A DNA stretch of 64,000 nt from an uncultured Candidatus Saccharibacteria bacterium (GTDB lineage Bacteria > Patescibacteriota > Minisyncoccia > Phycocordibacterales > CALRHW01). Position 1 is the stretch's first letter. Every line of letters begins with the position of its first letter. The DNA lies in assembly GCA_964390845.1 (NCBI GenBank), contig CAYMIL010000002.1:108593-172592 (forward strand), given 5' to 3'. The translations under genes and the position numbers were made by a program. Positions 12,886 to 64,000 of this stretch are shown one piece after another. The notes under the pieces are model-generated. The model was not told the origin of the DNA and searched no databases. It saw only the letters and a program-made list of their open reading frames with translations.

Positions 12886-14235
12886 ATGGATAGCAAGAAA
12901 CTTTGGGATAGTGTTCTCGTCGACGTTGAGATGAATGTTTCAAAGGCCAATTTCAACACATGGTTTAAAGATACCTTCATCTACAAAGTGGAAGACGGGG
13001 TCGCGTTCCTCAGTGTTCCCAACGCCTTCGTTCGTGAGTGGCTCATGAACAAGTATCATGCGTTTATCCTTAAATCACTACGCACCCTCTCAGAGGGAAT
13101 CCGCGCGCTTGATTATGTTGTGAGCAAGGGGGAGATGCGCCGAAAGGAATCTGCAGAAGCAATCCGTATACCAACACCAAGTTTCGATGAGCTTCCTTTA
13201 AACGACTTCTATATCAACAAAGAGGACAACCTCAACCCAAAGTACACCTTTGATTCTTTTATTGTAGGCCCCTTCAACGAGCTCGCTCACGCTGCCGCAC
13301 AGGCGATTATTAAAAAACCAGGTATCGTCTACAACCCCCTCTTTATTTACGGAAACACCGGCCACGGTAAAACCCACCTTATTCAGGCGATCGGTAATCA
13401 CATGAAGCAGACGTACCCAGACAGAAAGATCCACTACGTTACATCAGAAAAATTTACCGTCGACTATATCAACTCCGTCCAAGCAAACAAGGTAAATCAA
13501 TTTAAAGAGAAGTATCGAAAGTACGATATTTTCATCATGGACGACATCCAGTTCTTCTCAAAGAAGGAGAGTACTCAAGAAGAGCTCTTCCATTTATTCA
13601 ACTACCTGTATGACAATAACAAACAGATCATTTTCTCCTCAGATAAGCACCCCAACTACATCCCAAACCTTGAAGATCGTCTCAAGTCCCGATTCGGCGC
13701 GGGTATGATTGTCGATATTCCAGCTCCAGACCATGAATCTCGCATCTCCATCCTTTCAGCAAAGCTTCAACCACACAACCTCAACCTCTCCCAAGAGGTG
13801 ATAGATCATCTCGCAAGTGTTCTTTCTTCAAATATCCGAGAAATCGAGGGTGCTATCAACACTATTGTGTGCCACGCTCAGCTCAAACAAAAAGAACTTA
13901 CTCTCAATGAGGTAAAAAATCTCATCAAAAACAGCGCCAAACCTAAGAAAAACCTCTCTACAAAAGAAATTATTAAGATTATTGCTGACTTCTATAACAT
14001 TCACGAGGAAAGTATCTACGAAAAAACCCGAAAAAAAGAAATTATTAAGCCTCGGCAACTCACTATGTATATTCTCCGAGAAGATTTTAACATCTCATAC
14101 CCTTCAATAGGGGAGAAAATGGGAGGGCGGGATCACACAACAGTTATCCATTCATGCGAGAAAATCAAAAACGACCTTAAGGTTGATTCTGCTCTCGCAC
14201 AAGAGCTCAACCAGATACGGTCAATGCTTGTTTGA
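12886..14235 (+). CDS. dnaA: Chromosomal replication initiator DnaA
   Basis: Walker A GNTGHGKTHL; AAA+ and C-terminal DNA-binding domain pattern; followed by dnaN. Confidence 0.95.
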   Translation: MDSKKLWDSVLVDVEMNVSKANFNTWFKDTFIYKVEDGVAFLSVPNAFVREWLMNKYHAFILKSLRTLSEGIRALDYVVSKGEMRRKESAEAIRIPTPSFDELPLNDFYINKEDNLNPKYTFDSFIVGPFNELAHAAAQAIIKKPGIVYNPLFIYGNTGHGKTHLIQAIGNHMKQTYPDRKIHYVTSEKFTVDYINSVQANKVNQFKEKYRKYDIFIMDDIQFFSKKESTQEELFHLFNYLYDNNKQIIFSSDKHPNYIPNLEDRLKSRFGAGMIVDIPAPDHESRISILSAKLQPHNLNLSQEVIDHLASVLSSNIREIEGAINTIVCHAQLKQKELTLNEVKNLIKNSAKPKKNLSTKEIIKIIADFYNIHEESIYEKTRKKEIIKPRQLTMYILREDFNISYPSIGEKMGGRDHTTVIHSCEKIKNDLKVDSALAQELNQIRSMLV

Positions 14236-14269
14236 CGTTTCTAGGGATGTGTATATCATGGGGAAAGAC

Positions 14270-14464
14270 GTGGATTACTGTTGAAAAGTCTGGTGGTTTA
14301 AAGGAGACCTCAATCCTATTCCCACCTTACCAAATCTAATCCACACCTTATTCTCCACCAAAACATACTTTTATGGCTATAAATAAGGGTTCCACGACTT
14401 ATCCAGTTATCAACACCATCTATAGTAATAATAAGTTATATATAGAAGTAATTAGAATATAGGT
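14270..14464. promoter_or_regulatory. oriC part 2: DnaA boxes plus AT-rich unwinding element between dnaA and dnaN
   Basis: TAATCCACA at 14336-14344, TTATCAACA at 14407-14415 (1 mismatch each); ~45-nt nearly pure A/T tract at 14419-14464. Confidence 0.5.
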
Positions 14465-15568
14465 ATGAAAGTAGAATGCATCGTCGAAAAACTAAGTAAG
14501 AACGTTCTACAAGCAGAACGAGTAGCAGGTAAGAACCATTCACTTGCTGTTATTAACTGTATTCTTCTTGAAGCAACTAAAGATGGTTTGGTTATTAGAT
14601 CGACAAACCTTGATCTAGGTATAGAGATTGTGATGCCTGTAAAAACCATATCCGAAGGTAAGGTGGCTATTCCATCGGGTATTCTTGGTACATTCCTTTC
14701 TAGTTTGGGTTCAGATAAAACAGTTACTCTTGAATTAAAAGAAAATAATCTTGTTGTTTCAACTGCAAAAAACTCGACAATTATTAAAACTCACCCGTCT
14801 GAAGATTTTCCTACAATCCCTTCGGTGTTGGGGGAGAAGTCTTTCAAAATTAATCCAAAAGACTTTGTACGGGGTTTGAAGTCTGTCTGGTATAGTGCGG
14901 CTGTTTCGAGTATAAAGTCTGAGTTGTCGAGCGTGTATGTTTACTGTGATGATGAGGATAATATTATCTTTGTTGCTACAGATTCATTTAGACTCGCTGA
15001 GAAAAAGATTAAAGCAAAGAAGATTCAGGATTTTACGAGCCTACTCATTCCATTTAAAAATATTCCAGAAATTATTAGGGTTCTGGAAGGAATGGATGGT
15101 GATGTCACTGTTAACTTAGAGAAAAATCAGATCGCGTTTAATCTTGAGAATGTATATCTTACATCTCGAGTTATTGACGGTGTTTTTCCTGACTACAAAC
15201 AGATTATTCCAAAAGAATACGCGACTGAAGTAGTGATGTTGAAGCAGGACTTCGCAAACTCACTGAAGATATCAAATATTTTTTCAAATAAATTAAATCA
15301 GATAAACGTGAAAGCACTTCCTTCAAAGAAGATGTTTCAGGTACAAACAAAAAACTCAGACATTGGAGAGAATACAAATACAATAGACGCAGTGTTTAGT
15401 GGGGAAGATGTCGATATGAATTTTAATTATAAGTACATTATTGATTGTCTCCAGTCGATAGAATCCGATAGTATTTCCCTTAGCTTTAATGGACAGAGTA
15501 GGCCGGTGGTTATTCGTGGTGTATCAGATAAATCGTTTCTCTATTTGGTGATGCCAATGAATCGATAA
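14465..15568 (+). CDS. dnaN: DNA polymerase III beta sliding clamp
   Basis: 367 aa; three-domain clamp-like length; position after dnaA. Confidence 0.9.
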   Translation: MKVECIVEKLSKNVLQAERVAGKNHSLAVINCILLEATKDGLVIRSTNLDLGIEIVMPVKTISEGKVAIPSGILGTFLSSLGSDKTVTLELKENNLVVSTAKNSTIIKTHPSEDFPTIPSVLGEKSFKINPKDFVRGLKSVWYSAAVSSIKSELSSVYVYCDDEDNIIFVATDSFRLAEKKIKAKKIQDFTSLLIPFKNIPEIIRVLEGMDGDVTVNLEKNQIAFNLENVYLTSRVIDGVFPDYKQIIPKEYATEVVMLKQDFANSLKISNIFSNKLNQINVKALPSKKMFQVQTKNSDIGENTNTIDAVFSGEDVDMNFNYKYIIDCLQSIESDSISLSFNGQSRPVVIRGVSDKSFLYLVMPMNR

Positions 15569-15570
15569 TT

Positions 15571-15822
15571 ATGGAGAATATATCGTCATTTCTTCAGCGA
15601 TTTAAAAAACTTCTTTCATCTCACGGTGCGGTACGACAGATAGTGGCAGAAGCTATTAAGCAAGAAGTTGGTATTGATATTTCAACTGAAAAAATCACTA
15701 TACAGTCTGGTGTTGTGTCGATACAAGCATCGACAGTGGTAAAGAGCCAAGTATTTATAAAGAAAAACGCGATCCTTGGAAGGGTACGCGCGTTAGGCTC
15801 ATCTATTTCAGATATTCGTTAG
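15571..15822 (+). CDS. DUF721/DciA-like small protein
   Basis: 83 aa immediately after dnaN; ITIQSGVVSIQASTVVKSQVFIKKNAILGRVRALG resembles the DUF721 pattern (G.L.V.V.SS.W..EL....K..IL..LN). Confidence 0.4.
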   Translation: MENISSFLQRFKKLLSSHGAVRQIVAEAIKQEVGIDISTEKITIQSGVVSIQASTVVKSQVFIKKNAILGRVRALGSSISDIR

Positions 15823-18356
15823 GGTTTAACAGTAAATTTCTTTTCTACAGCAGTTTTGTTGAATACGGTATCAAAGACAACGGCTTTAAACGTGTTTTCT
15901 CCCATAGTGATGTTTTCTGTGTCGCTTGGGACAAATGAAATTGAGAATGGTGCGTAGGAACTACTGCCGATAAAGTTGTCGTTTAGGTAGTATTCGACTT
16001 TCTGCACGGGATATGTCGAAGAGTACTCAATAGACGCTGAGATTCGCTCATTAGGGCCGTATACGAGGTCTGAGCGAGGAGATTCGATTGATGCGTGAGG
16101 CATTTTTGCTGGGGTGTGGACATCGTCGTAGTCTGTAGGTACTGCATCCTCATCAAGCTCGGTGATATGGTTATCGTTTTTCCATTTTTGCACAGCATAC
16201 TCCCAGCGATCATATTGAGGATCAGCCCCAGGGTTTTCTGGTTGTGGGCCTCGAGGATCGTTTTTATTGACCCAGTAGAGGATAGAGTGTATCTGGCCGA
16301 TAACAACATCGTCGAGTGTCTCTTGTGGTGTATATTCAGTTGCGCGTTTTCCAGAGATGGTGTCGATAGGGAAACTTTCTCCGCCTTGCCATTTTCCTCG
16401 AAGTACAGGTTTGATACCAAGGAGGTCTTCTTGTGTTGGTTCTGGGAAGGATTCAACAGGGTATTTTTTAAGCGCTTGTACCATCACCTTATTCCAAAAC
16501 GGAGCGACGATGTATCCAGCAACCTTTTTGTCCATCGGTGTGTTGTTGTTATTACCAACCCATGCACCAATAACAAGACTTGGTGTGTAACCAATAATCC
16601 ACGCATCACGATAGTTGTTGGTGGTTCCAGTTTTTACGGCAACTTCTCGGCCAGGAATATATAAATGTGAGTGAACGCCGAAAATCGGGGAGCGGAGTTC
16701 GTCCGAAGAGAGAACTTGAGAAATCTGACGTGCAACTTGGTCGGAGATAACGGTGGTGGATTCATCGGCTGGTTTTTCCATAGGGGATCCGTTTTTTTGA
16801 TCAATCTCAAGGATTGGTTGGTATGGATGACGCACGCCGTCGTTTGCAAATACGCCGTATGCGCTTGTCATATCTAAAAGGGTAACCTCACCACCTCCGA
16901 GAACGAGGGTGAGACCGTACTGGTTTACATCGGTGAGTGTTTGTACACCCATATCTCGTGCAAGCTGAAGCACATCTTTCATACCCGCAAGGTAGAGGGT
17001 TTTAATTGCGGGTATATTGATAGATTGGGCAAGCGCGGCGGCCATTGTGATTGGACCACGATATTTTCCATCGTAGTTTTGCGGAGAGTAGCAACCATTT
17101 TCATTGCTTTGGTCGTCTGGTGCACATGTCGTTGAAAACTGAGTTTTTACATCAAAGAGTGCTGTCTCTGGTGTGTATCCTTTTGCAAAGGCTTCTGCAT
17201 ATGCAAAAGGTTTAAAGGCAGAACCCGGCTGTCGTTTTGCGAGCGCAACATTAAACTGACCATCGATTTCTGTATCGAAATAGTCTCGCGAACCAACCAT
17301 GGCAAGTATGTGCCCTGTTTTTGGGTCAATCGCAACAGCGGCAGCGTTTTCTGCTTGGTGGTCTTTTTCGTTTTGTAGAGCGAATGCTTTTGCTTCTTTC
17401 TCAAGCATCTCTTGGAGGGGGTAGTCGAGGGTGGTGATTACCTTAAGACCACCTTCTTCAAGCACTTGTGTACCGTACTTTTTTTCAAGAATATCTTTTA
17501 CGAACATCACAAAGTGTGGAGCTTTGATGCCGAGGCTCTGTTGGTCTTGAAAGACAACCTGCTCTTTTTTTGCAGAGTCGTACTCTTCTTGGGTGATGTA
17601 TCCGTCTTTCAGCATCTCTTGCAAGACGATATTTTTTCGCTCATCAAGCGCCTCACGGTTTCTGTAGGGAGAATAATAGCTCGGTGCTTTAGGGAGTGAT
17701 GCGAGGTATGCAGACTCTGCGATAGTGAGGTCCTTTGCTGACTTATTAAAAAATGCGTTACTCGCTTCCTCAACGCCATAGAGACTTCCTCCGTATGGAA
17801 TCTCATTAAGGTACATACTCAAAATCTGATCCTTTGTGAGAATACGCTCAAGCTTTATTGCAAGCACCCACTCTTTTACTTTTCGAGAAATACTCTTTTC
17901 ACCCGTGAGGAGGGAGTTTTTTACAACCTGTTGAGTAATAGTTGACCCCCCTTGGCTAAACTCAAGTGTTTTGAGGTTTGCAAAGATTGCTCGAATAAAC
18001 GAAGACGGCTTTACACCGTGATGAGTATAAAATTCTTTATCTTCAATAGCGATTGTGGCATCTTTTACATGCTGAGATATCTGGTCGAAAGGAACAACGG
18101 TGCGCTTGATGTTTTGGTAGACGTCATACAGCAAAACCTGCCCTGTGCGGTCGTAGATTTTTGTTGATTGTGATACTTTGCGCTCCTGGAATGAATCGAG
18201 CGTCGGAAGCTGGAAGGTTGATATCCAGAAGATAAAGAGAGACATGCCGACGACAAAGATTCCAAGGCCTAACAAAAGGATATTTTGGATGCCGGTGCGC
18301 TTGGACCATCGCTGCGCGGCCTTCGCGATGTGCTTCATAGACCTCCATTCTAACAT
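15819..18356 (-). CDS. mrcA: Class A penicillin-binding protein (transglycosylase/transpeptidase) PBP1A
   Basis: GT51 motifs EDKEFYTHHG and GGSTITQQ; N-terminal TM; transpeptidase domain; C-terminal ~140-aa extension. Confidence 0.9.
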   Translation of the reverse strand: MLEWRSMKHIAKAAQRWSKRTGIQNILLLGLGIFVVGMSLFIFWISTFQLPTLDSFQERKVSQSTKIYDRTGQVLLYDVYQNIKRTVVPFDQISQHVKDATIAIEDKEFYTHHGVKPSSFIRAIFANLKTLEFSQGGSTITQQVVKNSLLTGEKSISRKVKEWVLAIKLERILTKDQILSMYLNEIPYGGSLYGVEEASNAFFNKSAKDLTIAESAYLASLPKAPSYYSPYRNREALDERKNIVLQEMLKDGYITQEEYDSAKKEQVVFQDQQSLGIKAPHFVMFVKDILEKKYGTQVLEEGGLKVITTLDYPLQEMLEKEAKAFALQNEKDHQAENAAAVAIDPKTGHILAMVGSRDYFDTEIDGQFNVALAKRQPGSAFKPFAYAEAFAKGYTPETALFDVKTQFSTTCAPDDQSNENGCYSPQNYDGKYRGPITMAAALAQSINIPAIKTLYLAGMKDVLQLARDMGVQTLTDVNQYGLTLVLGGGEVTLLDMTSAYGVFANDGVRHPYQPILEIDQKNGSPMEKPADESTTVISDQVARQISQVLSSDELRSPIFGVHSHLYIPGREVAVKTGTTNNYRDAWIIGYTPSLVIGAWVGNNNNTPMDKKVAGYIVAPFWNKVMVQALKKYPVESFPEPTQEDLLGIKPVLRGKWQGGESFPIDTISGKRATEYTPQETLDDVVIGQIHSILYWVNKNDPRGPQPENPGADPQYDRWEYAVQKWKNDNHITELDEDAVPTDYDDVHTPAKMPHASIESPRSDLVYGPNERISASIEYSSTYPVQKVEYYLNDNFIGSSSYAPFSISFVPSDTENITMGENTFKAVVFDTVFNKTAVEKKFTVKP

Positions 18357-46869: not shown

Positions 46870-48594
46870 TTATGCTTCGCATGAAATGCACACATTGGCA
46901 TTTTCGCTTTGTGTGACTTCTTTTTGCTTTAGGCTAACTTCTTTTAATTTCTTACGTCCGAATTGTTGTGCTGCATTCATGCTGTGCTGATAATAAAAAG
47001 TCTTAATACCGCGCTTCCAGGCATGAAGATACAGGGCATTCGTTTCCTTGGCCGGAGTCGAGGGATCGATCATCAGATTAAGCGACTGCCCTTGATCAAT
47101 GTACTTCTGTCGCTCGGCCGCCTGTTCGATGACTACTTTTTGGTCAATTTCGGCAAATGTTTTGAAAACTTCTTTTTCTTGATCTGAAAGTTCTGTAAGA
47201 TGCTGAACAGAACCGTCGTTCTCACGGATGCTCTGCCAAATTTCCCTTGTGTTGATTCCTTTCACTTCCAAAAGTTTTTCGAGCAGGGGATTTTTAATGC
47301 TGATTTTCATTTTATCAATGTCTTTGACATAGCAGTTTGACCAAAGTGGCTCGATACTTTGAGAGACTTGTCCCAGGATGAATGCAGATGAGGTAGTCGG
47401 AGCAATCGCGATAAGCGTAGTGTTTCTCCTTCCGTATCCTTCAAGGATTTCCGGCTCGCCGTATTCTTTCGCAAGTCTCTCCGAAGCCCCATAGCACTGC
47501 TTGTGGAGATTTTTAAATATCTCCTTATTGAGCTCTTGCGCCTCCGTGCTTTCAAAGGGAATCATCTTGCTCTGAAGGAGAGAGTGCCAGCCGAGAACTC
47601 CGAGACCAAGCGCGCGGTTTGCTTTGGCAAAATTGTATGCGCGTTCCATAAAGAGGAAAGCCTGCTTTTTGTGAAGATCTCCGCTATCGCGTAGCCCTTC
47701 CAGTCGGCTAAGAAAATCACCCATCACTGCATCTAAAAAGTAGACAAGGGTTTCAACTGCGTCCGTATCTTTCCATTCTTCGTAGTAAAGAAGATTCATT
47801 GAAGAAAGATTGCAGACCACGGTCCAATGCTCATTGGACGGTAGCAGTATTTCCGAGCAGAGGTTGCTAGCGTATATTTTTAGATTTTTGTCTTTATACA
47901 CATCAACAGTATCTCGGTTGACAGTGTCGCTGAATAAAATGTAAGGGTATCCAATCTGGCTTCTCCTTTGGAGAACCTTTGCCCAGACATCTCTTTTTTC
48001 CTGATCTCCGGCAATCATGTCGTCGAGCCACTGATCCGTAACGGTAACGCCGTACGTCAATTCCTGAATGGGATTTCCCTCGGTGCCGATTTCTAAAAAC
48101 TCATGGATGTCTTTATGTTCAAGTGGAAGATAGGGAGCAAAGTGGCCACGCCGGACTGATCCCTGGCTTACGACATTAGATAGTGTTTCAAAAAGTCTCA
48201 TAAAGTGAACCGCTCCGGAAGAAACACCGTTGTCTTTGATTACGGAGCCTCGGGGACGCACATCGCCGAAATAGCCGGCAGTGCCACCCCCGTATTTACT
48301 CATCATTCCTACCTCTGCCTGTGTAAAAAGTATCTGACCCATGTCGTCTCCTATATACGAAGAAAAACAGCTGATTGGGAATCCTTTACTGAGGCCGAAA
48401 TTTGACCAGACAGGGGAGGCGAGTGAGAAGTATCCGCGCGACATGTAGTCGCAGAACTTTTCTGCAAAACCCTCTTTTTGAAGGATGCGTTCGGCCGTTT
48501 CGGCGATCTCGCGTATTCTTTCCTCAGCGGTTACTCCGTCTTTGAGGTATCCTTTCGATAAAAATAATTTACTGTGTTCATTGAGCCAGTGCAT
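46870..48594 (-). CDS. nrdA: Class I ribonucleotide reductase alpha subunit, no ATP-cone
   Basis: Active-site NLCSEILLPS; C-terminal Cys pair CISCEA; 574 aa starting directly in the catalytic barrel. Confidence 0.9.
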   Translation of the reverse strand: MHWLNEHSKLFLSKGYLKDGVTAEERIREIAETAERILQKEGFAEKFCDYMSRGYFSLASPVWSNFGLSKGFPISCFSSYIGDDMGQILFTQAEVGMMSKYGGGTAGYFGDVRPRGSVIKDNGVSSGAVHFMRLFETLSNVVSQGSVRRGHFAPYLPLEHKDIHEFLEIGTEGNPIQELTYGVTVTDQWLDDMIAGDQEKRDVWAKVLQRRSQIGYPYILFSDTVNRDTVDVYKDKNLKIYASNLCSEILLPSNEHWTVVCNLSSMNLLYYEEWKDTDAVETLVYFLDAVMGDFLSRLEGLRDSGDLHKKQAFLFMERAYNFAKANRALGLGVLGWHSLLQSKMIPFESTEAQELNKEIFKNLHKQCYGASERLAKEYGEPEILEGYGRRNTTLIAIAPTTSSAFILGQVSQSIEPLWSNCYVKDIDKMKISIKNPLLEKLLEVKGINTREIWQSIRENDGSVQHLTELSDQEKEVFKTFAEIDQKVVIEQAAERQKYIDQGQSLNLMIDPSTPAKETNALYLHAWKRGIKTFYYQHSMNAAQQFGRKKLKEVSLKQKEVTQSENANVCISCEA

Positions 48595-48613
48595 AAGATG
48601 TTAAATATTTAAT

Positions 48614-49909
48614 TTAGAATAAATCATCACCCGTCACGCTTTGATTTCTCTTGTTGTAATTAATTGACCGCTTCACGAAGAAATCTCCGTGCTTTGTGGC
48701 GATGACCTCATCATCGAACCAGTCCGTTTTCTCGAGCATGGCTTTGTCCACTTCAAATATCCTTTGAATGCCGATGCTTGCGAGCGAGTTGTTAAATCTG
48801 TTCTTGATGAATTCAAGCACCAAGTTTTTCGGCATAAAATCAATTTCTCCCATCTCAAGTATCCAGTCCACAATCTTCTTTTCTGATTCAAAAGCTTCTT
48901 TGCAGGCCTCTACGATGACCTCTTCATATTCTTTATCGAACCATTCTGGATGCTCGGCCCGTATGATGTTGATGACATCAATGCCGAACAATCCATGGAT
49001 CTGCTCTTCTTTGGACGTTGCCTCAACAGCGTTCGATATTCCTTTGAAGATATTTTTGTACTTGTTAAACGACATGATGATGAGGAACTGGGAAAACAAA
49101 GAGACGTGCTCAATGAAAAGAGAAAAGAGAAGAATAGACTGAGCGTATTCTCGGTTGTCATCGCTCCGAGCATTCTTGATTGCCTTCTCAAGATATCTAA
49201 CACGGTCAATCAGAGGAGGAAATTCTTTAATCTTTTTGAATTCTTCATTGAGCCCAAGTATCTCAAGAAGGTGGGCATACGCATCCATATGTCTCACTTC
49301 GCTTTCAGCAAAAGTAAAGCCGACTGCGCCAATCTCCGGCTTCGGCATTTTGCTGTAGATGTTACCCCAGAATGTTTTGACAGCGACTTCGATCTGGGCG
49401 ATCGCAAGCATTGCGTTTTTTATTGCATTTCTTTCTTTTTCATTGACGTTTACTTTGAAGTCCTGGATGTCGCTCGTGTAATTAAATTCAGTGTGTATCC
49501 AGTATGAATGCCGTATCGCGCTCACATACTCATATAGTTCAGGATACTCATAGGGTTTTAAATTTGTCCTTTTTTTGAAAATATCGCGCTTCCTGAGCTT
49601 TGCATGCTCCTGCCGGTAGAGAATGTACGACTTTCCCACCTCAAAAAATTCTTTTTTCATCAGCTCCTCTTCGACAATATCCTGAATTTGTTCGACGGTC
49701 GGATGTTTTGCTTCAGGAGCGGGATGCTTTTTATTAAGATGATCGAGAACATTCTCGGCAACAGAACGGGCATCATGCATAGTTCCCTTGTCCACAGAGA
49801 GCATCGCCTTAAATACAGCTTGGGTTATTTTTTCAGTGTCAAAAGGCTGTATCGCGCCGTCGCGCTTTATGACATTTTGGGTATAAGACGAATGTTCTTT
49901 GTTTGGCAT
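48614..49909 (-). CDS. nrdB: Class I ribonucleotide reductase beta subunit with N-terminal ATP-cone
   Basis: N-terminal VIKRDGAIQPFDTEKITQAVFKA (ATP-cone); ferritin-like metal site region (EVRHMDAYAHL ... EEQIHGLFG). Confidence 0.85.
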   Translation of the reverse strand: MPNKEHSSYTQNVIKRDGAIQPFDTEKITQAVFKAMLSVDKGTMHDARSVAENVLDHLNKKHPAPEAKHPTVEQIQDIVEEELMKKEFFEVGKSYILYRQEHAKLRKRDIFKKRTNLKPYEYPELYEYVSAIRHSYWIHTEFNYTSDIQDFKVNVNEKERNAIKNAMLAIAQIEVAVKTFWGNIYSKMPKPEIGAVGFTFAESEVRHMDAYAHLLEILGLNEEFKKIKEFPPLIDRVRYLEKAIKNARSDDNREYAQSILLFSLFIEHVSLFSQFLIIMSFNKYKNIFKGISNAVEATSKEEQIHGLFGIDVINIIRAEHPEWFDKEYEEVIVEACKEAFESEKKIVDWILEMGEIDFMPKNLVLEFIKNRFNNSLASIGIQRIFEVDKAMLEKTDWFDDEVIATKHGDFFVKRSINYNKRNQSVTGDDLF

Positions 49910-58102: not shown

Positions 58103-58130
58103 AAAAAACCGGCGTCAAGCCGGTTTTTTG
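58103..58130 (+). terminator. Rho-independent terminator after rplK
   Basis: ACCGGCGTCAAGCCGGT hairpin + TTTTTT. Confidence 0.7.
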
Positions 58131-58170
58131 TTGTGGGAACATAGTGGTGCCGTGTTAAAATAATTGGAAC

Positions 58171-59280
58171 ATGGGACAGAAATTCCAGACAACGAAGCAC
58201 GGTGCGCTGCCATACCAAACGATTGTTGACCTCATTTCTGCGCGATGTATCATCGGCGCAAAGGAGGGGAATGTTAAGCCATCATCCCTCGATCTCTCTC
58301 TTTCTCGGGAAGTATATAGTGTTGAAGGAATTTTTCAGCCACGAAAAGCAGAAACGGTGCGTGAGGTGCTTGAGCAGATACGAAAAAAGAAACACGATAT
58401 TTCTGTGCCACTGAAGCGAGGGCAGATGTATATGGTACGACTCAACGAGACACTTGCGCTACCTCGCGACGTGTATGCGTTTTGCAATCCAAAATCTACA
58501 AGCGGACGCATGGATATGCACGTGCGTTTGCTTGCGGATAGGGTTTCTCGCTACGATTCGGTAACGCGTGGTTTTAAGGGTGAGTTGTGGGTGTCCGTTG
58601 TACCCAACACATTCTCTGTGTTGTTGCACGAGGGCTTGAGTCTCAACCAGCTTCGGTTTTTTAACACAGATACACGACTGAGCGATGTCGATATTGAGCG
58701 CGCAATGAAACAGCACAAGCTCTTGTGGAATGGGCAGACATCAAAAGCATACAAGAGCTCAGATATTTCTATACGCGACAACGATGGGTCGATTATTCTT
58801 ACACTCGATTTGGAAAGCACTGTGCTTGGGTATGAGGCGATGCCGACTCAGGAGACTGTCGATTTGTCTCGTATTGGCGCATACAATGCAAAAAAGTTTT
58901 TTAAGCCTGTCTCCTGTAAAAACGGTTTTCTCTATTTGAAGAAAGATGCGTTTTATATTCTCTCTACGCATGAAGCGGTGCGCGTGCCTCCCGAGCTTGC
59001 ATGTGAGATGTTGCCGATGGACGAGCGTAGTGGAGATTTTCGTTCACATTATGCCGGCTTTATTGACCCAGGGTGGGGGTGGGGAAAGCGCGGAGAGGAG
59101 AAAGGGAGAACACTGACGCTTGAGGTACGCCCGTTTGAGGATTTGATTGTCCGCCAAGGACAGCCTATTGCCAAGATTCGTTTTGAGCGTATGGCTGAAG
59201 TGCCAACACATGTGTACGATACGTTGTCTTCAAATTACAGCGTGCAAAAGGGGCCGAAATTAGCAAAACATTTTAAATAA
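58171..59280 (+). CDS. dCTP deaminase-like protein, long (DCD-family-like, ~370 aa)
   Basis: dUTPase/dCTP-deaminase superfamily motif III GFIDPGWGWG...TLTLEV; size; heads a dTTP-synthesis gene cluster. Confidence 0.45.
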   Translation: MGQKFQTTKHGALPYQTIVDLISARCIIGAKEGNVKPSSLDLSLSREVYSVEGIFQPRKAETVREVLEQIRKKKHDISVPLKRGQMYMVRLNETLALPRDVYAFCNPKSTSGRMDMHVRLLADRVSRYDSVTRGFKGELWVSVVPNTFSVLLHEGLSLNQLRFFNTDTRLSDVDIERAMKQHKLLWNGQTSKAYKSSDISIRDNDGSIILTLDLESTVLGYEAMPTQETVDLSRIGAYNAKKFFKPVSCKNGFLYLKKDAFYILSTHEAVRVPPELACEMLPMDERSGDFRSHYAGFIDPGWGWGKRGEEKGRTLTLEVRPFEDLIVRQGQPIAKIRFERMAEVPTHVYDTLSSNYSVQKGPKLAKHFK

Positions 59281-59302
59281 CTGCGCGCCGCGCATACATG
59301 CC

Positions 59303-60592
59303 ATGAAAACCTTTGTCTACGATGAGTTTAATCCACAAGATGTTGCGATGATGCAGGCGTTGTATTCACGAAGTGCGGCGAGCGTTGAAGAGCATGTAGA
59401 AAAAGTGCGTACGTCTGGCTCGGGTAAGTTTATGGAAAAGTATTATGTCGGGTACGGTCATGCGTCTATTGCGGACTGTGGTTCGACGACAGTCTTTGTG
59501 GAGGGCGTGAGTATGCTTGCGGCAAAAGCGATACAGGATTGGCCAATGTATTCTGGTCAGGAGACAAGCTCTCGGTATATCGACATGTCAAAGCAGGCGA
59601 TTGTCGATCCTGTCGGTACGAAAGCATCAAAGCAGATTATGCAGAGGTGGATGGATTTTTATACCGCAGAGCAGGGCGCAGTAGAAGCGCACCTTCGAGA
59701 AAAATATCCGCGCAAAGATGGGGAAGATGAAGGGGTGTATACGCGTGCCATCAAAGCGCGAATCTTTGATATCTTGCGGGGGTTTTTGCCAGCGGGCGTT
59801 ACAACACAGTTGAGCTGGCATACAAATTTGCGCCAAGCCCACGACAAACTTTCACTTCTCGACCACCATCCACTTAAAGAGATTGCGACCATATCTCACG
59901 ATATCCACACCAAGCTCAAGGAGAAATATCCAAACAGTTTTGGGCACCAGCTGTATCCAAAGCAAGAAGCGTATCGGAAGTTTCTTGCAGATAAATACAC
60001 GTACTACTTCAATGGCAAGGTGCGAGGTTTTAAGACGACGACGACAATTCGCCCTACGGAGCTTATGGCATACAAAGATGTGCTCATGAAGCGCCCGATA
60101 AAGACAAATCTTCCAAACTTTCTTGCTGAGCTTGGTATGGTGACATTTGAATTTCTCCTTGACTTCGGCTCGTTCCGCGATATTCAGCGTCATCGCAACG
60201 GAGTATGTCGTATGCCACTTCTCACAACATCGTACGGTTTTCATGAATGGTATCTTGCGCAGTTGCCACGAGAGACTCGCACTCGCGCGGAGAAGCTTAT
60301 CAAAGAGCAGGTTCGTGCAATAAAGGCGCTTAAGGTTTCAAAAGATAGTGCTCAGTATTATGTAGCGATGGGCTTTAAGGTTGCGTGTCGCGTATCCTAC
60401 GGTATTCCTGCGGCAGTGTATACGATGGAGTTGCGTTCTGGTCGTCTTGTACATCCAACACTACGCGCTGTTGCACACCAGATGTATCGTGGTCTCAAAA
60501 AGAAATTCCCGAAGCTCACACTTCACGCGGATCTTGATCTGGACGACTGGGACATTCGCCGAGGTTTGCAGGATATTAAAGAGAAAAAATAA
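59303..60592 (+). CDS. ThyX-like protein (putative divergent flavin-dependent thymidylate synthase, long form)
   Basis: GYGHASIADCGSTTVFVEGVSMLAAK resembles ThyX GHxSVxEHxxxTFxIEGxSR; an RHR triplet occurs later (DIQRHRNG); sits between dCTP-deaminase-like and glyA/tmk/dut. Confidence 0.4.
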   Translation: MKTFVYDEFNPQDVAMMQALYSRSAASVEEHVEKVRTSGSGKFMEKYYVGYGHASIADCGSTTVFVEGVSMLAAKAIQDWPMYSGQETSSRYIDMSKQAIVDPVGTKASKQIMQRWMDFYTAEQGAVEAHLREKYPRKDGEDEGVYTRAIKARIFDILRGFLPAGVTTQLSWHTNLRQAHDKLSLLDHHPLKEIATISHDIHTKLKEKYPNSFGHQLYPKQEAYRKFLADKYTYYFNGKVRGFKTTTTIRPTELMAYKDVLMKRPIKTNLPNFLAELGMVTFEFLLDFGSFRDIQRHRNGVCRMPLLTTSYGFHEWYLAQLPRETRTRAEKLIKEQVRAIKALKVSKDSAQYYVAMGFKVACRVSYGIPAAVYTMELRSGRLVHPTLRAVAHQMYRGLKKKFPKLTLHADLDLDDWDIRRGLQDIKEKK

Positions 60593-60603
60593 AACGAACG
60601 CAC

Positions 60604-61779
60604 ATGAAAGACAAACAGATCGAAAAACTCATAAAGGCAGAGAAGGTGCGGCAGGGGAAAGTCATCAATCTCATTGCCTCAGAAAATTATGTGTCGGCAG
60701 ATGTGCTCGTGGCGCTCGGCTCCGAGCTTACCAATAAGTATGCAGAAGGATATCCGGGCAAGCGGTACTACGGCGGGCAAGCAGTGGTAGACGAAATAGA
60801 AAATGTATGTCGCGCGAGAGCGCTTGCGCTTTTTGGGCTTTCAGCAAAGCAGTGGCATGTAAACGTTCAGCCACTTTCTGGGTCTCCAGCAAATGTTGCG
60901 GTGTATACAGCGCTTGTGTCTCCACATGGAAAAATCATGGGTATGAGTCTCGATCAAGGCGGACATCTTACACACGGTCACAAGGTGTCGGTAACGGGAA
61001 AGTTTTGGAATCAGGTTCCATTTGGTGTCGATAAAAATACTGAAGTGCTCGATTATGCAGAGCTTAAAAACATTGCACTCGAACATAAGCCTAATATCAT
61101 TGTCGCGGGTTTTACCGCATATCCCCGTACTGTGGATTTCAAGAAGTTTCGTGACATTGCCGATGCGTGTGGCGCATATCTTATGGTAGATATGTCCCAT
61201 GTCGCGGGACTTGTTGCGGGTGGTGCATACCCATCGCCGTTTAAATATGCAGATGTCGTCACGACGACCGTGCACAAGACACTTCGTGGTCCACGTAGCG
61301 CCATGATTTTTGTTCGCAAAGACAAGCGTGAACTCGACAAACTCATCGACAAAGCGGTGTTTCCGGGTATGCAGGGTGGCCCGCACCTCAACCAAATCGC
61401 GGCGGTTGCCGTTGCTCTTAAAGAGGCGGCGACTCCAGCGTTTAAAAAATACGCGGCACAGGTCGTGAAAAACGCGCAGACACTTGCGTCCGAGCTTAGT
61501 AAGCGCGGTTGGAAGATTATTTCCGGTGGCACCGATAGTCACTTGGTACTTGTTGATACGTGGATGAGTGGAAAGGGGATTTCTGGAAGTGATGCAAGTG
61601 CTCGTTTGGAGAAAGCGGGAATTATTGTAAACAAAAACACAATTCCATACGAAACACGCTCACCATTTGACCCGTCTGGTATCCGCCTCGGCACTGCCGC
61701 TGAAACGACGCGTGGCGCGAAAGAAAAAGATTTCAAACGTATCGCAGAAAAGATTGATCAGATATTAAGAAAAAAATAA
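60604..61779 (+). CDS. glyA: Serine hydroxymethyltransferase
   Basis: PLP-lysine region HLTHGHKVSVTGK; SHMT N-terminus ...LIASENYVS. Confidence 0.9.
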   Translation: MKDKQIEKLIKAEKVRQGKVINLIASENYVSADVLVALGSELTNKYAEGYPGKRYYGGQAVVDEIENVCRARALALFGLSAKQWHVNVQPLSGSPANVAVYTALVSPHGKIMGMSLDQGGHLTHGHKVSVTGKFWNQVPFGVDKNTEVLDYAELKNIALEHKPNIIVAGFTAYPRTVDFKKFRDIADACGAYLMVDMSHVAGLVAGGAYPSPFKYADVVTTTVHKTLRGPRSAMIFVRKDKRELDKLIDKAVFPGMQGGPHLNQIAAVAVALKEAATPAFKKYAAQVVKNAQTLASELSKRGWKIISGGTDSHLVLVDTWMSGKGISGSDASARLEKAGIIVNKNTIPYETRSPFDPSGIRLGTAAETTRGAKEKDFKRIAEKIDQILRKK

Positions 61780-61786
61780 CGCATAT

Positions 61787-62500
61787 ATGGCAACAAAAGG
61801 AAAACTCATTGTCATCGACGGTATCGACGGATCGGGGAAGGCAACACAGGTGGCACTCCTTAAACAGCGCCTCACTAAAGAGAAAATCAAGGTAAAGACA
61901 ATAGACTTTCCGCGATATCAGGACAATTTTTTCGGCGCGCTTATTGGAAAGTATCTTTCCGGTATCTACGGAGATTTTATTGCCATGGATCCACGTGTTG
62001 CATCAGTGCTCTATGCGGCCGATCGTTTTGAATCAAGCGCACAGATACGGGCGTGGCTTGATGCAGGCTACACAGTGATTGCCGACAGATACGTGAGTGC
62101 AAACCAGATTCATCAAGGAGGAAAAATCGCTAATCCAAAAGAGCGAAAAGAATTTCTCGAATACCTCGATGAAATGGAGCATGGAGCGTTTAAGACACCT
62201 CGACCAGACCTTGTCATATATCTCGATGTTCCGTTTGAGGTGAGTCGTGCGTGGCTTCAGAAAAAAGTCGCCCAACGCAAGAAAACATATCTCAAGGGTG
62301 GGCGTAAGGATGTGGCTGAGGACAACTTGCTTCACCTAAAACACTCACGCGAGAGCGCGCTTAGCTTACAGAAGACACATAAGAATTGGGAGAAGGTGCA
62401 GTGCTGTGACGGAATGGTGTGTATGTTGCCGGAGCAGGTACACGAACAGGTGTATACTATCGTGAGTAAGCATCTTCGTCTGAAGAAGAAAAAAGCATAA
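61787..62500 (+). CDS. tmk: Thymidylate kinase
   Basis: P-loop LIVIDGIDGSGKATQ; DRY-like motif ADRYVSAN. Confidence 0.9.
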   Translation: MATKGKLIVIDGIDGSGKATQVALLKQRLTKEKIKVKTIDFPRYQDNFFGALIGKYLSGIYGDFIAMDPRVASVLYAADRFESSAQIRAWLDAGYTVIADRYVSANQIHQGGKIANPKERKEFLEYLDEMEHGAFKTPRPDLVIYLDVPFEVSRAWLQKKVAQRKKTYLKGGRKDVAEDNLLHLKHSRESALSLQKTHKNWEKVQCCDGMVCMLPEQVHEQVYTIVSKHLRLKKKKA

Positions 62501-62504
62501 GAAT

Positions 62505-62933
62505 ATGCCACTTTCATTACGTATAAAAAAATTACGCCCAGACAGTACGATGCCAAGCTATGCACATCCAGGGGATGCGGGGCTTGATTTGTATGCTGCC
62601 GAAACAACGACGGTTGCCCCGGGGCAAAACGTTGCCGTGCCGACGGGTGTTGCCATGGAAATTCCAGACGGCTATGTCGGTCTTATTTGGGACAAAAGCG
62701 GGCTTGCTATAAAAAACCGCCTCAAGACACTCGGTGGGGTGGTGGATAGTGGCTATCGTGGCGAGGTTCTCGTTGGTATGATAAATTTATCGTCCGAGCC
62801 GTATACCTTTGAAAAGAGGCATAAAGTTGCCCAGATGGTTATCCAGAAAAAGGAGGATGTGCGCGTCGAGGAGGTAGACGAGCTCTCAGATACAGTGCGT
62901 GGTACAGGTGGTTTTGGTAGTACGGGAAAATAG
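62505..62933 (+). CDS. dut: dUTP diphosphatase
   Basis: dUTPase motifs AGLDLYA, GVVDSGYRGEV; C-terminal RGTGGFGSTGK. Confidence 0.9.
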   Translation: MPLSLRIKKLRPDSTMPSYAHPGDAGLDLYAAETTTVAPGQNVAVPTGVAMEIPDGYVGLIWDKSGLAIKNRLKTLGGVVDSGYRGEVLVGMINLSSEPYTFEKRHKVAQMVIQKKEDVRVEEVDELSDTVRGTGGFGSTGK

Positions 62934-62950: not shown

Positions 62951-64000
62951 ATGAAAGATATTCAGGAAATAATAAAAAAAGAATTGGTGGTGCATGGTTT
63001 TGTGGCCGAGGACATTTCGCTTGCGCGCCCGAAAGATATTTCACATGGCGACTATGCATTTTTCGTGCGTGATCCGTCTATCGACCTCACACGTTTTTCT
63101 ACTCCCATAGCTGGCACACATCAATATATAGAGAGCGTTAGTGCTACAGGCCGTTTCGTAAATATCAAACTCTCGCCGGCATTTTTTGCTGACATGATTT
63201 TTGCAATACATGCGATGCCGGATTCCTACGGCAAAAACACGCTTCGCGAAGGCGAGCGGGTGATTATGGAATACACCGACCCGAATCCGTTTAAGCAATT
63301 TCATATCGGCCACCTCATGAGCAACGCTATCGGTGAAGCGCTTTCTCGCATTACTGCGTGGAGTGGCGCATCGGTGAAGCGCGCAAACTATCAGGGCGAT
63401 GTCGGCCCGCATGTAGCAAAAGCTATTTGGGGTATGCAGGAGCTCTCGGGCGAAATGCCACACGCAAAAGAACATCTTGCAAAGAAAACAGAATTTCTTG
63501 GTCGTGCATATGTGCACGGCTCAAACGCGTATGAGGATGACGAAAGCGCGAAAAAAGAAATCGATGCGCTCAACAAAGTTATTTACGAAAAGTCTGATCC
63601 GAAAGTAGTCGAACTCTACGACTGGGGCAGAAAAGCGAGCCTTGAGCATTTTGAAGAAATCTACGCGAAGCTTGGCACGACGTTCGATTACTATTTCTAC
63701 GAATCTGAATCCGCGCCACGGGGCATGTTTATTGTAGAAGACTTGCTTGCGCGCGGTATTTTGGAAAAGAGTGAGGGTGCTGTGGTGTTTAAGGGGGAGC
63801 AGTATGGTTTACATACGCGCGTTTTTGTTACTTCTGCTGGCCTGCCAACATATGAAGCAAAAGAGCTTGGTGTAAACAAAATGAAGTTTGATCGAGAACA
63901 CTTCGATCTCTCTGTCATTATCACCGCAAGTGAACAGAACGACCATTTCAAGGTTGTGCTCAAGGTGCTTGAGTTTGCCGATGCGTCGATCGCCAACAAG
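62951..64000 (+). CDS. argS: Arginyl-tRNA synthetase (5' partial, runs off the window end)
   Basis: Open frame to window end; HIGH-type motif PFKQFHIGHL; N-terminal Arg-tRNA-binding domain pattern. Confidence 0.85.
   Translation, partial: MKDIQEIIKKELVVHGFVAEDISLARPKDISHGDYAFFVRDPSIDLTRFSTPIAGTHQYIESVSATGRFVNIKLSPAFFADMIFAIHAMPDSYGKNTLREGERVIMEYTDPNPFKQFHIGHLMSNAIGEALSRITAWSGASVKRANYQGDVGPHVAKAIWGMQELSGEMPHAKEHLAKKTEFLGRAYVHGSNAYEDDESAKKEIDALNKVIYEKSDPKVVELYDWGRKASLEHFEEIYAKLGTTFDYYFYESESAPRGMFIVEDLLARGILEKSEGAVVFKGEQYGLHTRVFVTSAGLPTYEAKELGVNKMKFDREHFDLSVIITASEQNDHFKVVLKVLEFADASIANK

What the first reader, a model, noticed from the sequence alone, without database searches (positions are those of the whole stretch)
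58171..62933. Compact dTTP-synthesis operon: dCTP-deaminase-like, divergent ThyX-like protein, glyA, tmk, dut
Five co-directional genes with 4-25 nt spacers together make dTDP. Dcd-like makes dUTP from dCTP, dut makes dUMP, thymidylate synthase methylates dUMP using CH2-THF supplied by GlyA, and tmk phosphorylates dTMP. The presumed synthase (429 aa) shows a ThyX-like N-terminal motif (GHASIADCGSTTVFVEGVS) but lacks the canonical RHR-x7-S spacing, and is about twice ThyX length. It may be a tandem-domain or novel ThyX variant. The first gene is a long (369 aa) member of the dUTPase/dCTP-deaminase superfamily (GFIDPGWGWG). Co-operonic dcd-thyX-glyA-tmk-dut is unusual and gives strong functional context to two poorly characterised proteins.
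Basis: partly seen in the sequence, partly recalled or inferred. Interest (0 to 1): 0.55.

Follow-up and report, generated by a model that had tools for sequence, protein, structure and literature searches.

The report
Thymidylate operon with double-domain ThyX
This is a real five-gene operon for making the DNA building block thymidylate in a tiny "candidate phyla radiation" bacterium. Its thymidylate synthase is a double-length ThyX whose halves each keep a different part of the active site, so two chains should build two working sites instead of four.

Summary
Five co-directional ORFs (58171-62933, spacers 22/11/7/4 nt) encode a long two-domain dCTP deaminase, a 429-aa ThyX-like protein, SHMT (GlyA), thymidylate kinase and dUTPase, all with significant HMM matches.

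The 429-aa protein is an internal tandem duplication of the ThyX fold. Each half matches Pfam Thy1, and the AF2 models of the whole protein and of the C half alone hit only ThyX-family chains (ThyX and the ThyX-like methylase PolB) in the PDB.

The canonical RHR-x7-S motif is split between the halves:
- The C half keeps RHR (R296/H297/R298) and the R174 equivalent (R378).
- The N half keeps the H53/T55, E86/S88/R90/Y91, R147 and R165 equivalents.

This pattern is near-invariant in 117 family members (37-78% identity). It matches the published three-subunit make-up of the ThyX active site. I infer that a homodimer forms a pseudo-tetramer with two complete and two vestigial sites.

The family is large (about 4,300 proteins, 436 GTDB species, mostly Patescibacteria, plus jumbo phages). 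It is already annotated as FAD-dependent thymidylate synthase. In 68 of 80 species it sits beside glyA, tmk, dut or dcd.

A ThyX domain duplication was noted in 2009 as uncharacterised. This is a solid, moderately interesting variant of a known enzyme, not a new system.

The parts
58103..58130 (+). Terminator-like hairpin (AAAAAACCGGC-gtcaa-GCCGGTTTTTT) between rplK and the operon. It probably separates the transcription units, so the operon's own promoter would lie in 58131-58170.
   Evidence: Read directly from the sequence. The consensus scan did not list it, so this is an inference.
58171..59280 (+). Long-form, two-domain dCTP deaminase (369 aa). Proposed step: dCTP to dUTP.
   Evidence: Pfam DCD_N 138 bits and DCD_C 151 bits. 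NCBIfam NF005734 equivalog 289 bits, above the 283 cut-off. PDB 2r9q (A. tumefaciens dCTP deaminase) at E=6e-53 over residues 34-369.
59303..60592 (+). Tandem-domain ThyX (429 aa), the proposed flavin-dependent thymidylate synthase (dUMP + CH2-THF + NADPH to dTMP + THF).
- N half, about residues 1-221: keeps H53, S55, K75, E87, S89, R91, Y92, R159 and R177.
- C half, about residues 222-429: keeps R292, D293, R296-H297-R298, R378 and H384.
   Evidence: Pfam Thy1: whole protein 76.6 bits, N half 61 bits, C half 20 bits with E=6e-4. AF2 models have pLDDT 86.4 (whole) and 93.3 (C half), and both hit only ThyX-family chains (ThyX and the ThyX-like PolB) in the PDB. Residue table over 117 homologues.
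60604..61779 (+). Serine hydroxymethyltransferase GlyA (391 aa). It regenerates CH2-THF from the THF released by ThyX.
   Evidence: Pfam SHMT 548 bits; NCBIfam NF000586 540 bits, above the 335 cut-off.
61787..62500 (+). Thymidylate kinase Tmk (237 aa). Step: dTMP to dTDP.
   Evidence: Pfam Thymidylate_kin 70.5 bits (cut-off 27). NCBIfam dTMP kinase models match below their equivalog cut-offs: TIGR00041 76.5 vs 83.25 and NF005923 112 vs 193.
62505..62933 (+). Trimeric-type dUTPase Dut (142 aa). Step: dUTP to dUMP + PPi.
   Evidence: Pfam dUTPase 108 bits; TIGR00576 153 bits (cut-off 102.55); NF001862 148.5 bits (cut-off 103).

Best explanation
The region is a housekeeping dTMP/dTDP-synthesis operon of a Patescibacteria (CPR) bacterium. 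Dcd deaminates dCTP to dUTP and Dut hydrolyses dUTP to dUMP. The 429-aa protein methylates dUMP to dTMP as a flavin-dependent thymidylate synthase. GlyA reloads the released THF to CH2-THF, so no DHFR is needed. Tmk then makes dTDP.

The synthase is an internal tandem duplication of the ThyX domain in which the two copies have degenerated in a complementary way. In canonical homotetrameric ThyX, each active site is built by three subunits:
- One gives RHR and the R174-type arginine (role A).
- One gives the GHxS/T serine and the R165-type arginine (role B).
- One gives the E-x-S-x-R-Y loop (role C).

Here only the C half carries the role-A residues, and only the N half carries the role-B and role-C residues. 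I infer that two chains assemble into a D2 pseudo-tetramer with the C halves at two symmetry-related positions and the N halves at the other two. This would give two complete catalytic sites, each made of one C half and both N halves, plus two vestigial sites. It implies one FAD per chain rather than two.

Shown here: gene content, fold of both halves, residue pattern and gene linkage. Inferred: oligomeric state, number of active sites and enzymatic activity.
For: - Family assignments for all five genes.
- Both halves match Thy1 separately.
- The full-length AF2 model (pLDDT 86.4, pTM 0.86) and the C-half model (pLDDT 93.3) retrieve only ThyX-family chains (ThyX and the ThyX-like PolB) from the PDB. 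The C half alone gives E down to 7e-7 with TM about 0.6 and 154 hits at E<=1e-3.
- hhalign places R296-H297-R298 on Tm R78-H79-R80, R378 on R174, and N-half E87/S89/R91/Y92 on E86/S88/R90/Y91. The Tm sequence was verified as 100% identical to 1kq4.
- Counts over 117 homologues at 37-78% identity. C half: R296 117, H297 108, R298 117, R378 117. N half: H53 115, S55 117, E87 115, S89 117, R91 117, Y92 114, R159 112, R177 97. The partner half has non-equivalent or variable residues at each of these positions.
- The review PMC6514825 assigns the Mtb ThyX site residues to subunits as RHR+R199 (A), S71+R190 (B) and R87/S105/R107/Y108 (C). This is exactly the split seen here.
- Linkage: 68 of 80 GTDB species loci have glyA, tmk, dut or dcd within 6 kb on the same strand.
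- The split pattern is also kept in jumbo-phage homologues at 33% identity.
- No thyA or canonical thyX in the window or the 83 loci.
Against: - No biochemical or structural data exist for any tandem ThyX in the sources I could search.
- The protein scores only 30 bits against the NCBIfam thyX equivalog TIGR02170 (cut-off 87.9).
- The C-half profile finds no ThyX by sequence in the PDB, so its residue equivalences outside the R378 region rest on low-confidence hhalign columns plus secondary-structure register.
- The dimer and pseudo-tetramer could not be modelled, because only single chains can be predicted here.
- Whether the genome also carries thyA or a canonical thyX could not be checked beyond 64 kb.
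- Several residues stay conserved at 'vestigial' positions (K75, H189, Q351, Y373, R292/D293), so those sites may not be simply dead.
Confidence: 0.8

Rival explanations
1. The tandem ThyX-like protein is a ThyX-fold methylase or hydroxymethylase with a different substrate or product. Examples would be a UMP/dUMP methylase like PolB, or an enzyme making a modified pyrimidine. The true thymidylate synthase would then be encoded elsewhere.
For: - The sequence is far from characterised ThyX: TIGR02170 gives 30 bits vs the 87.9 cut-off, and the best PDB sequence hit has E=0.014.
- PolB (4p5a) is among the fold hits.
- Homologues occur in jumbo phages and large viral contigs, where nucleotide-modifying enzymes are common.
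- The rest of the genome could not be searched.
Against: - All dUMP- and FAD-contacting residues of bona fide ThyX are conserved as a composite set.
- The gene is a single-copy neighbour of dut (dUMP supply), glyA (CH2-THF) and tmk (dTMP consumer) across dozens of species, next to core nusG-rplK genes.
- ThyX chains outrank PolB in both fold searches.
- The BONAISHI phage also encodes a thymidylate kinase, and its authors found no DNA-modification genes.
Confidence: 0.1
2. All four sites of a pseudo-tetramer, or the sites of some other oligomer, are functional. The 'lost' residues would be replaced by non-homologous ones such as K75, R303, Q351 and Y373. On this view the split-motif pattern reflects divergence, not loss of two sites.
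For: Conserved residues persist at vestigial positions: K75 116/117, Q351 113/117, Y373 115/117 and H189 109/117. No oligomer model was possible.
Against: - The N half has D/x/P in place of RHR and a fully variable residue in place of R174.
- The C half has hydrophobic or variable residues in place of E86/S88/R90/Y91.
- R303 is present in only 33 of 117 sequences.
- These are the residues that bind the FAD phosphates and dUMP in every solved ThyX (PMC6514825).
Confidence: 0.07
3. The genes are merely adjacent and are not a functional unit or operon.
For: There is no transcript evidence. The promoter and terminator scans are at the background level.
Against: The spacers are 4-22 nt with no internal terminator-like hairpin in any spacer. 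All genes are on the same strand. The linkage recurs in 68 of 80 species, although the gene order shuffles.
Confidence: 0.03

Closest known systems
Canonical flavin-dependent thymidylate synthase ThyX/FDTS (Pfam Thy1 PF02511; T. maritima TM0449 1o26, M. tuberculosis 2af6/3gwc, PBCV-1 2cfa)
   Same: Each half has the same fold. The same FAD- and dUMP-contacting residues are present (RHR, R174, S88, R90, Y91, E86, H53, T/S55, R147, R165). The genomic role is the same, next to dut, glyA and tmk.
   Different: - One 429-aa chain holds two ThyX domains instead of one 190-250-aa domain.
- The RHR-x7-S signature is split: Ser in the N half, RHR in the C half.
- The predicted assembly is a dimer with two composite sites rather than a homotetramer with four.
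- It scores below the TIGR02170 equivalog cut-off.
'Duplicated ThyX' of Chloroflexi noted by Valas and Bourne 2009 (PMC3224940)
   Same: [quoted passage not shown] This is the same architecture.
   Different: I could not obtain a Chloroflexi sequence, so whether it belongs to the same family and has the same split-motif pattern is untested. From memory only (unverified), Chlamydia ThyX (CT632) is about 529 aa and may also be a tandem form.
Long-form dCTP deaminase (NCBIfam NF005734/PRK07559; Pfam DCD_N+DCD_C; PDB 2r9q)
   Same: Gene 1 passes the equivalog cut-off and aligns end to end with 2r9q.
   Different: Nothing notable. It is a member of that family. To my knowledge the family itself has little biochemistry.
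Jumbo Vibrio phage 'thymidylate synthase-complementing protein' (BONAISHI ORF269, vB_VmeM-Yong)
   Same: Full-length tandem homologues (33% identity, 90-98% coverage) with the same split residues. The authors already noted a best hit to Parcubacteria (PMC6207643).
   Different: They sit in a viral context, without the dcd-glyA-dut neighbours.

Membership tests
ThyX / FDTS (Pfam Thy1) | Match to the family HMM above the curated threshold | tested here: met
   PF02511 scores 76.6 bits vs 24.8. The N half alone scores 61 bits. The C half alone scores 20 bits (E=6e-4), which is below the gathering score.
ThyX / FDTS (Pfam Thy1) | ThyX fold | tested here: met
   Foldseek against the PDB returns only ThyX-family chains (ThyX and the ThyX-like PolB) for the whole model and for the C half alone (E=7e-7, TM about 0.6).
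ThyX / FDTS (Pfam Thy1) | ThyX signature RHR-x7-S in one contiguous segment | tested here: not met
   The N half has D79-W80-P81...S89. The C half has R296-H297-R298...L306. The two parts of the motif lie in different halves, so the signature can only be met in trans.
ThyX / FDTS (Pfam Thy1) | Full set of FAD- and dUMP-binding residues available to one active site | tested here: met
   The composite set is conserved in 97-117 of 117 homologues. It maps onto the A/B/C subunit roles given in PMC6514825.
ThyX / FDTS (Pfam Thy1) | Homotetramer with four active sites at three-subunit interfaces | not testable with these tools
   Only single chains can be predicted here. A dimer acting as a pseudo-tetramer is inferred.
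ThyX / FDTS (Pfam Thy1) | dUMP to dTMP activity with CH2-THF, FAD and NAD(P)H | not testable with these tools
   There is only contextual support from linkage with dut, glyA and tmk.
NCBIfam TIGR02170 thyX equivalog | Score at or above the 87.9-bit equivalog cut-off | tested here: not met
   30.1 bits.
Long dCTP deaminase (NF005734 / PF06559+PF22569) | Equivalog cut-off and two-domain DCD_N+DCD_C architecture | tested here: met
   289 bits vs 283. DCD_N covers residues 10-166 and DCD_C covers 205-368. PDB 2r9q matches at E=6e-53.
Long dCTP deaminase (NF005734 / PF06559+PF22569) | Catalytic motifs of Dcd (Ser/Arg loop, IDPGW, catalytic Glu) | tested here: inconclusive
   The C domain has ERSGDFR, FIDPGW and TLTLE by eye. 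BLASTP to E. coli Dcd (sequence verified against 1xs1) is only marginal, at E about 0.04-0.06.
SHMT (GlyA) | HMM thresholds | tested here: met
   PF00464 548 bits; NF000586 540 bits vs 335.
Thymidylate kinase (Tmk) | HMM thresholds | tested here: inconclusive
   The Pfam threshold is met (70.5 vs 27). The NCBIfam equivalogs are not met: 76.5 vs 83.25 and 112 vs 193.
dUTPase (Dut, trimeric type) | HMM thresholds | tested here: met
   PF00692 108 bits; TIGR00576 153 bits vs 102.55.

The most novel reading that the evidence does not exclude
Tandem ThyX is a distinct, obligately asymmetric class of flavin-dependent thymidylate synthase. Its fused and sub-functionalised domains would give a dimer with two composite catalytic sites. 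The two vestigial pockets keep their own conserved residues (K75, H189, Q351, Y373) and may have been re-used, for example for NADPH, folate or regulator binding. The class would be the main or only thymidylate synthase of most Patescibacteria. It is shared with jumbo phages and giant-virus-like contigs, and possibly with Chloroflexi, which would make it a rare genomic character for deep bacterial relationships.
Probability: 0.3. Interest if true: 0.6.

Novelty: new variant of a known kind. Interest (0 to 1): 0.45.

Why it matters
ThyX is an antibiotic target and a mechanistically unusual enzyme whose active sites need three subunits. A natural fused form, with each half specialised for part of the site, is a ready-made asymmetric ThyX. 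It would let single-site mutagenesis, half-site reactivity and FAD stoichiometry be studied without mixing mutant tetramers.

It also appears to be the standard thymidylate synthase of a very large, uncultured bacterial radiation and of some jumbo phages. It scores well below the cut-off of the curated thyX equivalog model (TIGR02170), so pipelines that rely on that model alone could undercount dTMP synthesis capacity in these genomes.

The operon itself is ordinary biochemistry. It gives clean functional context, not a new pathway.

Tried and rejected
- A profile of 24 C halves (A2) searched against PDB sequences found no ThyX, only chance hits at E>0.3. Sequence alone is too weak for the C half, so I predicted its structure instead.
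- hhalign of the N half against the C half gave only E=4e-3 over 51 columns, and the extended alignment was out of register. I did not use it for residue equivalences.
- The Foldseek afdb50 library was unavailable, so I could not look for other tandem ThyX proteins with organism names.
- Two cluster look-ups and a second homologue search from the divergent member P0132 gave no names outside Patescibacteria. Membership of Chloroflexi or Chlamydia tandem ThyX is therefore unresolved.
- The Griffin 2005 (C. trachomatis ThyX) and Leduc 2004 (three-monomer site) papers are not held.
- tblastn with E. coli ThyA and T. maritima ThyX against the window and 83 loci found nothing. This covers only a small part of each genome.
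- The promoter and terminator scans were at the background level.
- Literature searches for ThyX with Patescibacteria, CPR or tandem terms found no study of this protein.
Full report
**Observation.**
- 58171-59280 (369 aa)
- 59303-60592 (429 aa)
- 60604-61779 (391 aa)
- 61787-62500 (237 aa)
- 62505-62933 (142 aa)

The spacers are 22, 11, 7 and 4 nt. Upstream lie secE, nusG and rplK. A terminator-like hairpin at 58103-58130 follows rplK. Downstream an arginyl-tRNA synthetase gene starts at 62951.

HMM searches assign the genes as follows:

| Gene | Assignment | Scores |
|---|---|---|
| 1 | Long two-domain dCTP deaminase | DCD_N 138 bits, DCD_C 151 bits; NF005734 289 bits, cut-off 283 |
| 2 | Thy1/ThyX | 76.6 bits, two stretches |
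| 3 | SHMT | 548 bits |
| 4 | Thymidylate kinase | Pfam 70.5 bits; below the NCBIfam equivalog cut-offs |
| 5 | dUTPase | Pfam 108 bits; TIGR00576 153 bits |

Gene 1 also matches the solved A. tumefaciens protein 2r9q at E=6e-53.

**Source and family size.** The identical ThyX-like protein is on metagenome contigs of up to 198 kb. Its homologues number about 4,350 at E<=1e-3. The best 120 are 65-78% identical, about 429 aa long, and named 'FAD-dependent thymidylate synthase' from Parcubacteria, Paceibacterota, Uhrbacteria and Vogelbacteria MAGs. An exhaustive search of 50%-identity representatives gives 511 clusters at E<=1e-30, and nearly all of the 150 listed are 420-500 aa. A scan of one genome per GTDB species finds 436 species with a relative. 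This is a large family that is already annotated.

**The 429-aa protein is a tandem ThyX.**
- Scanned separately, the N half (residues 1-216) scores 61 bits and the C half (217-429) scores 20 bits (E=6e-4) against Thy1.
- An AF2 model of the whole protein (pLDDT 86.4, pTM 0.86) shows the same strand-helix-strand, long-helices, helix-strand-helix-helix order twice.
- Its Foldseek hits in the PDB are all ThyX-family chains (ThyX and the ThyX-like methylase PolB) of 180-245 residues, each covering about half of the query.
- Because sequence evidence for the C half was weak (a profile of 24 C halves found no ThyX in the PDB), I modelled the C half alone (pLDDT 93.3). It retrieves PBCV-1, T. maritima, T. 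thermophilus and PolB ThyX-fold chains at E down to 7e-7 and TM about 0.6, with 154 hits at E<=1e-3.

No tandem ThyX appears among the solved structures returned.

**The split motif.** I aligned each half to T. maritima ThyX. That sequence was recalled from memory and verified as 100% identical to 1kq4. The alignments used hhalign. I then counted residues over 117 family members spanning 37-78% identity.

| T. maritima residue | N half | C half |
|---|---|---|
| R78-H79-R80 | D79, variable, P81 | R296 (117/117), H297 (108), R298 (117) |
| R174 | variable | R378 (117/117) |
| H53 / T55 | H53 (115), S55 (117) | P or variable |
| E86 / S88 / R90 / Y91 | E87 (115), S89 (117), R91 (117), Y92 (114) | hydrophobic or variable |
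| R147 | R159 (112) | Q351 |
| R165 | R177 (97) | P369 |

The Ser part of the signature is in the N half and the RHR part is in the C half.

**Mechanistic inference.** A review of solved M. tuberculosis and H. pylori ThyX structures (PMC6514825) states that each site is built by three subunits:
- Subunit A gives RHR (Mtb 95-97) and R199 (Tm R174).
- Subunit B gives S71 and R190 (Tm T55 and R165).
- Subunit C gives R87, S105, R107 and Y108 (Tm S88, R90 and Y91).

The tandem protein keeps role-A residues only in the C half, and role-B and role-C residues only in the N half. In a D2 tetramer the four sites use the subunit triplets (A,B,C), (B,A,D), (C,D,A) and (D,C,B). Placing C halves at positions A and D and N halves at B and C gives two complete sites and two sites lacking every key residue. 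Positions A and D are related by a two-fold axis, as a homodimer requires.

I therefore propose a homodimer that acts as a pseudo-tetramer with two catalytic sites and one FAD per chain. This step is inference, because no oligomer could be modelled here. Residues conserved at the vestigial positions (K75, H189, Q351, Y373) leave open a secondary role for those pockets.

**Context.** In 80 species loci (6 kb of flank each side), the tandem gene has glyA in 35, tmk in 44, dut in 35 and dcd in 9. In every case the neighbour is on the same strand.
- 68 loci have at least one of these genes.
- 39 have at least two.
- 11 have at least three.
- 5 have all four.
- nusG-rplK lies upstream in about half.

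Gene order varies, which argues for selection on linkage rather than shared ancestry alone. The full dcd-thyX-glyA-tmk-dut set is the richest version of a common patescibacterial layout, not an oddity. No thyA or single-domain thyX is found in the window or these loci. The remainder of the genomes could not be searched.

**Comparison with what is known.** The pathway is textbook: Dcd, then Dut, then ThyX with GlyA, then Tmk. Because ThyX releases THF rather than DHF, GlyA alone closes the folate cycle.

The only mention of a duplicated ThyX in the searchable literature is Valas and Bourne 2009 (PMC3224940). [quoted passage not shown] I found no paper on ThyX in CPR or Patescibacteria. The jumbo phage BONAISHI paper lists a 'thymidylate synthase-complementing protein' whose best hit is Parcubacteria (PMC6207643).

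The architecture is therefore known to exist and the family is annotated. The complementary split of the active site, and its consequence for stoichiometry, seems not to have been described.

**Verdict.** This is a new variant of a known enzyme inside an ordinary operon. It is of moderate interest to ThyX enzymologists and to people reconstructing CPR metabolism.

Noticed in passing
L086 2884-4326 (Vibrio phage BONAISHI MH595538.1 260653-262095); L087 2941-4326 (vB_VmeM-Yong MS32); L088-L122 (IMG/VR): Full-length tandem ThyX homologues occur in jumbo Vibrio phages (33% identity, 90-98% coverage). They also occur in 35 IMG/VR viral contigs, many over 100 kb, one of them labelled as a giant-virus MAG. 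They keep the same split residues (S55, S89, R91 / R292, R296, R298, R378, H384). Some 'viral' contigs could be misbinned CPR DNA.
   Followed up: partly
L084 8001-9494 (P0132, ENA ERZ19046170 scaffold_3024): A divergent, higher-GC tandem ThyX (497 aa, with a ~45-aa insertion after the YSRS helix) sits in a one-directional run of small unannotated ORFs. Its neighbours include a nucleoside diphosphate kinase and a Dam-type methyltransferase, which is a phage-like context.
   Followed up: no
window 46870-49909, - strand: A class I ribonucleotide reductase pair. The small (radical-generating) subunit carries an N-terminal ATP-cone (Pfam 81.7 bits), and no ATP-cone match was reported for the large subunit. 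From memory, this arrangement is known from the NrdAi/NrdBi subclass.
   Followed up: partly
window 58103-58130: A hairpin, AAAAAACCGGC-gtcaa-GCCGGTTTTTT, is flanked by A and T runs on either side (bidirectional terminator-like). It lies between rplK and dcd, and the consensus terminator scan did not list it.
   Followed up: no
window 58171-59280: The long Dcd is itself two DCD-like domains. The C domain keeps ERSGDFR, FIDPGW and TLTLE (a full Dcd motif set by eye). The N domain keeps only the KSTSGR loop and has S in place of the catalytic Glu. This operon therefore has a second internally duplicated enzyme with one degenerate copy.
   Followed up: partly
L001 16715-20305 (about 6 kb beyond the window's 3' end on the same contig): A 1196-aa isoleucyl-tRNA-synthetase-like gene has a histidine-phosphatase (His_Phos_1) Pfam hit between its two tRNA-synt_1 segments.
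   Followed up: no
window 14001-16000: A local GC dip to 0.37, against 0.45-0.50 elsewhere in the window. The GC skew changes sign near 13-14 kb.
   Followed up: no
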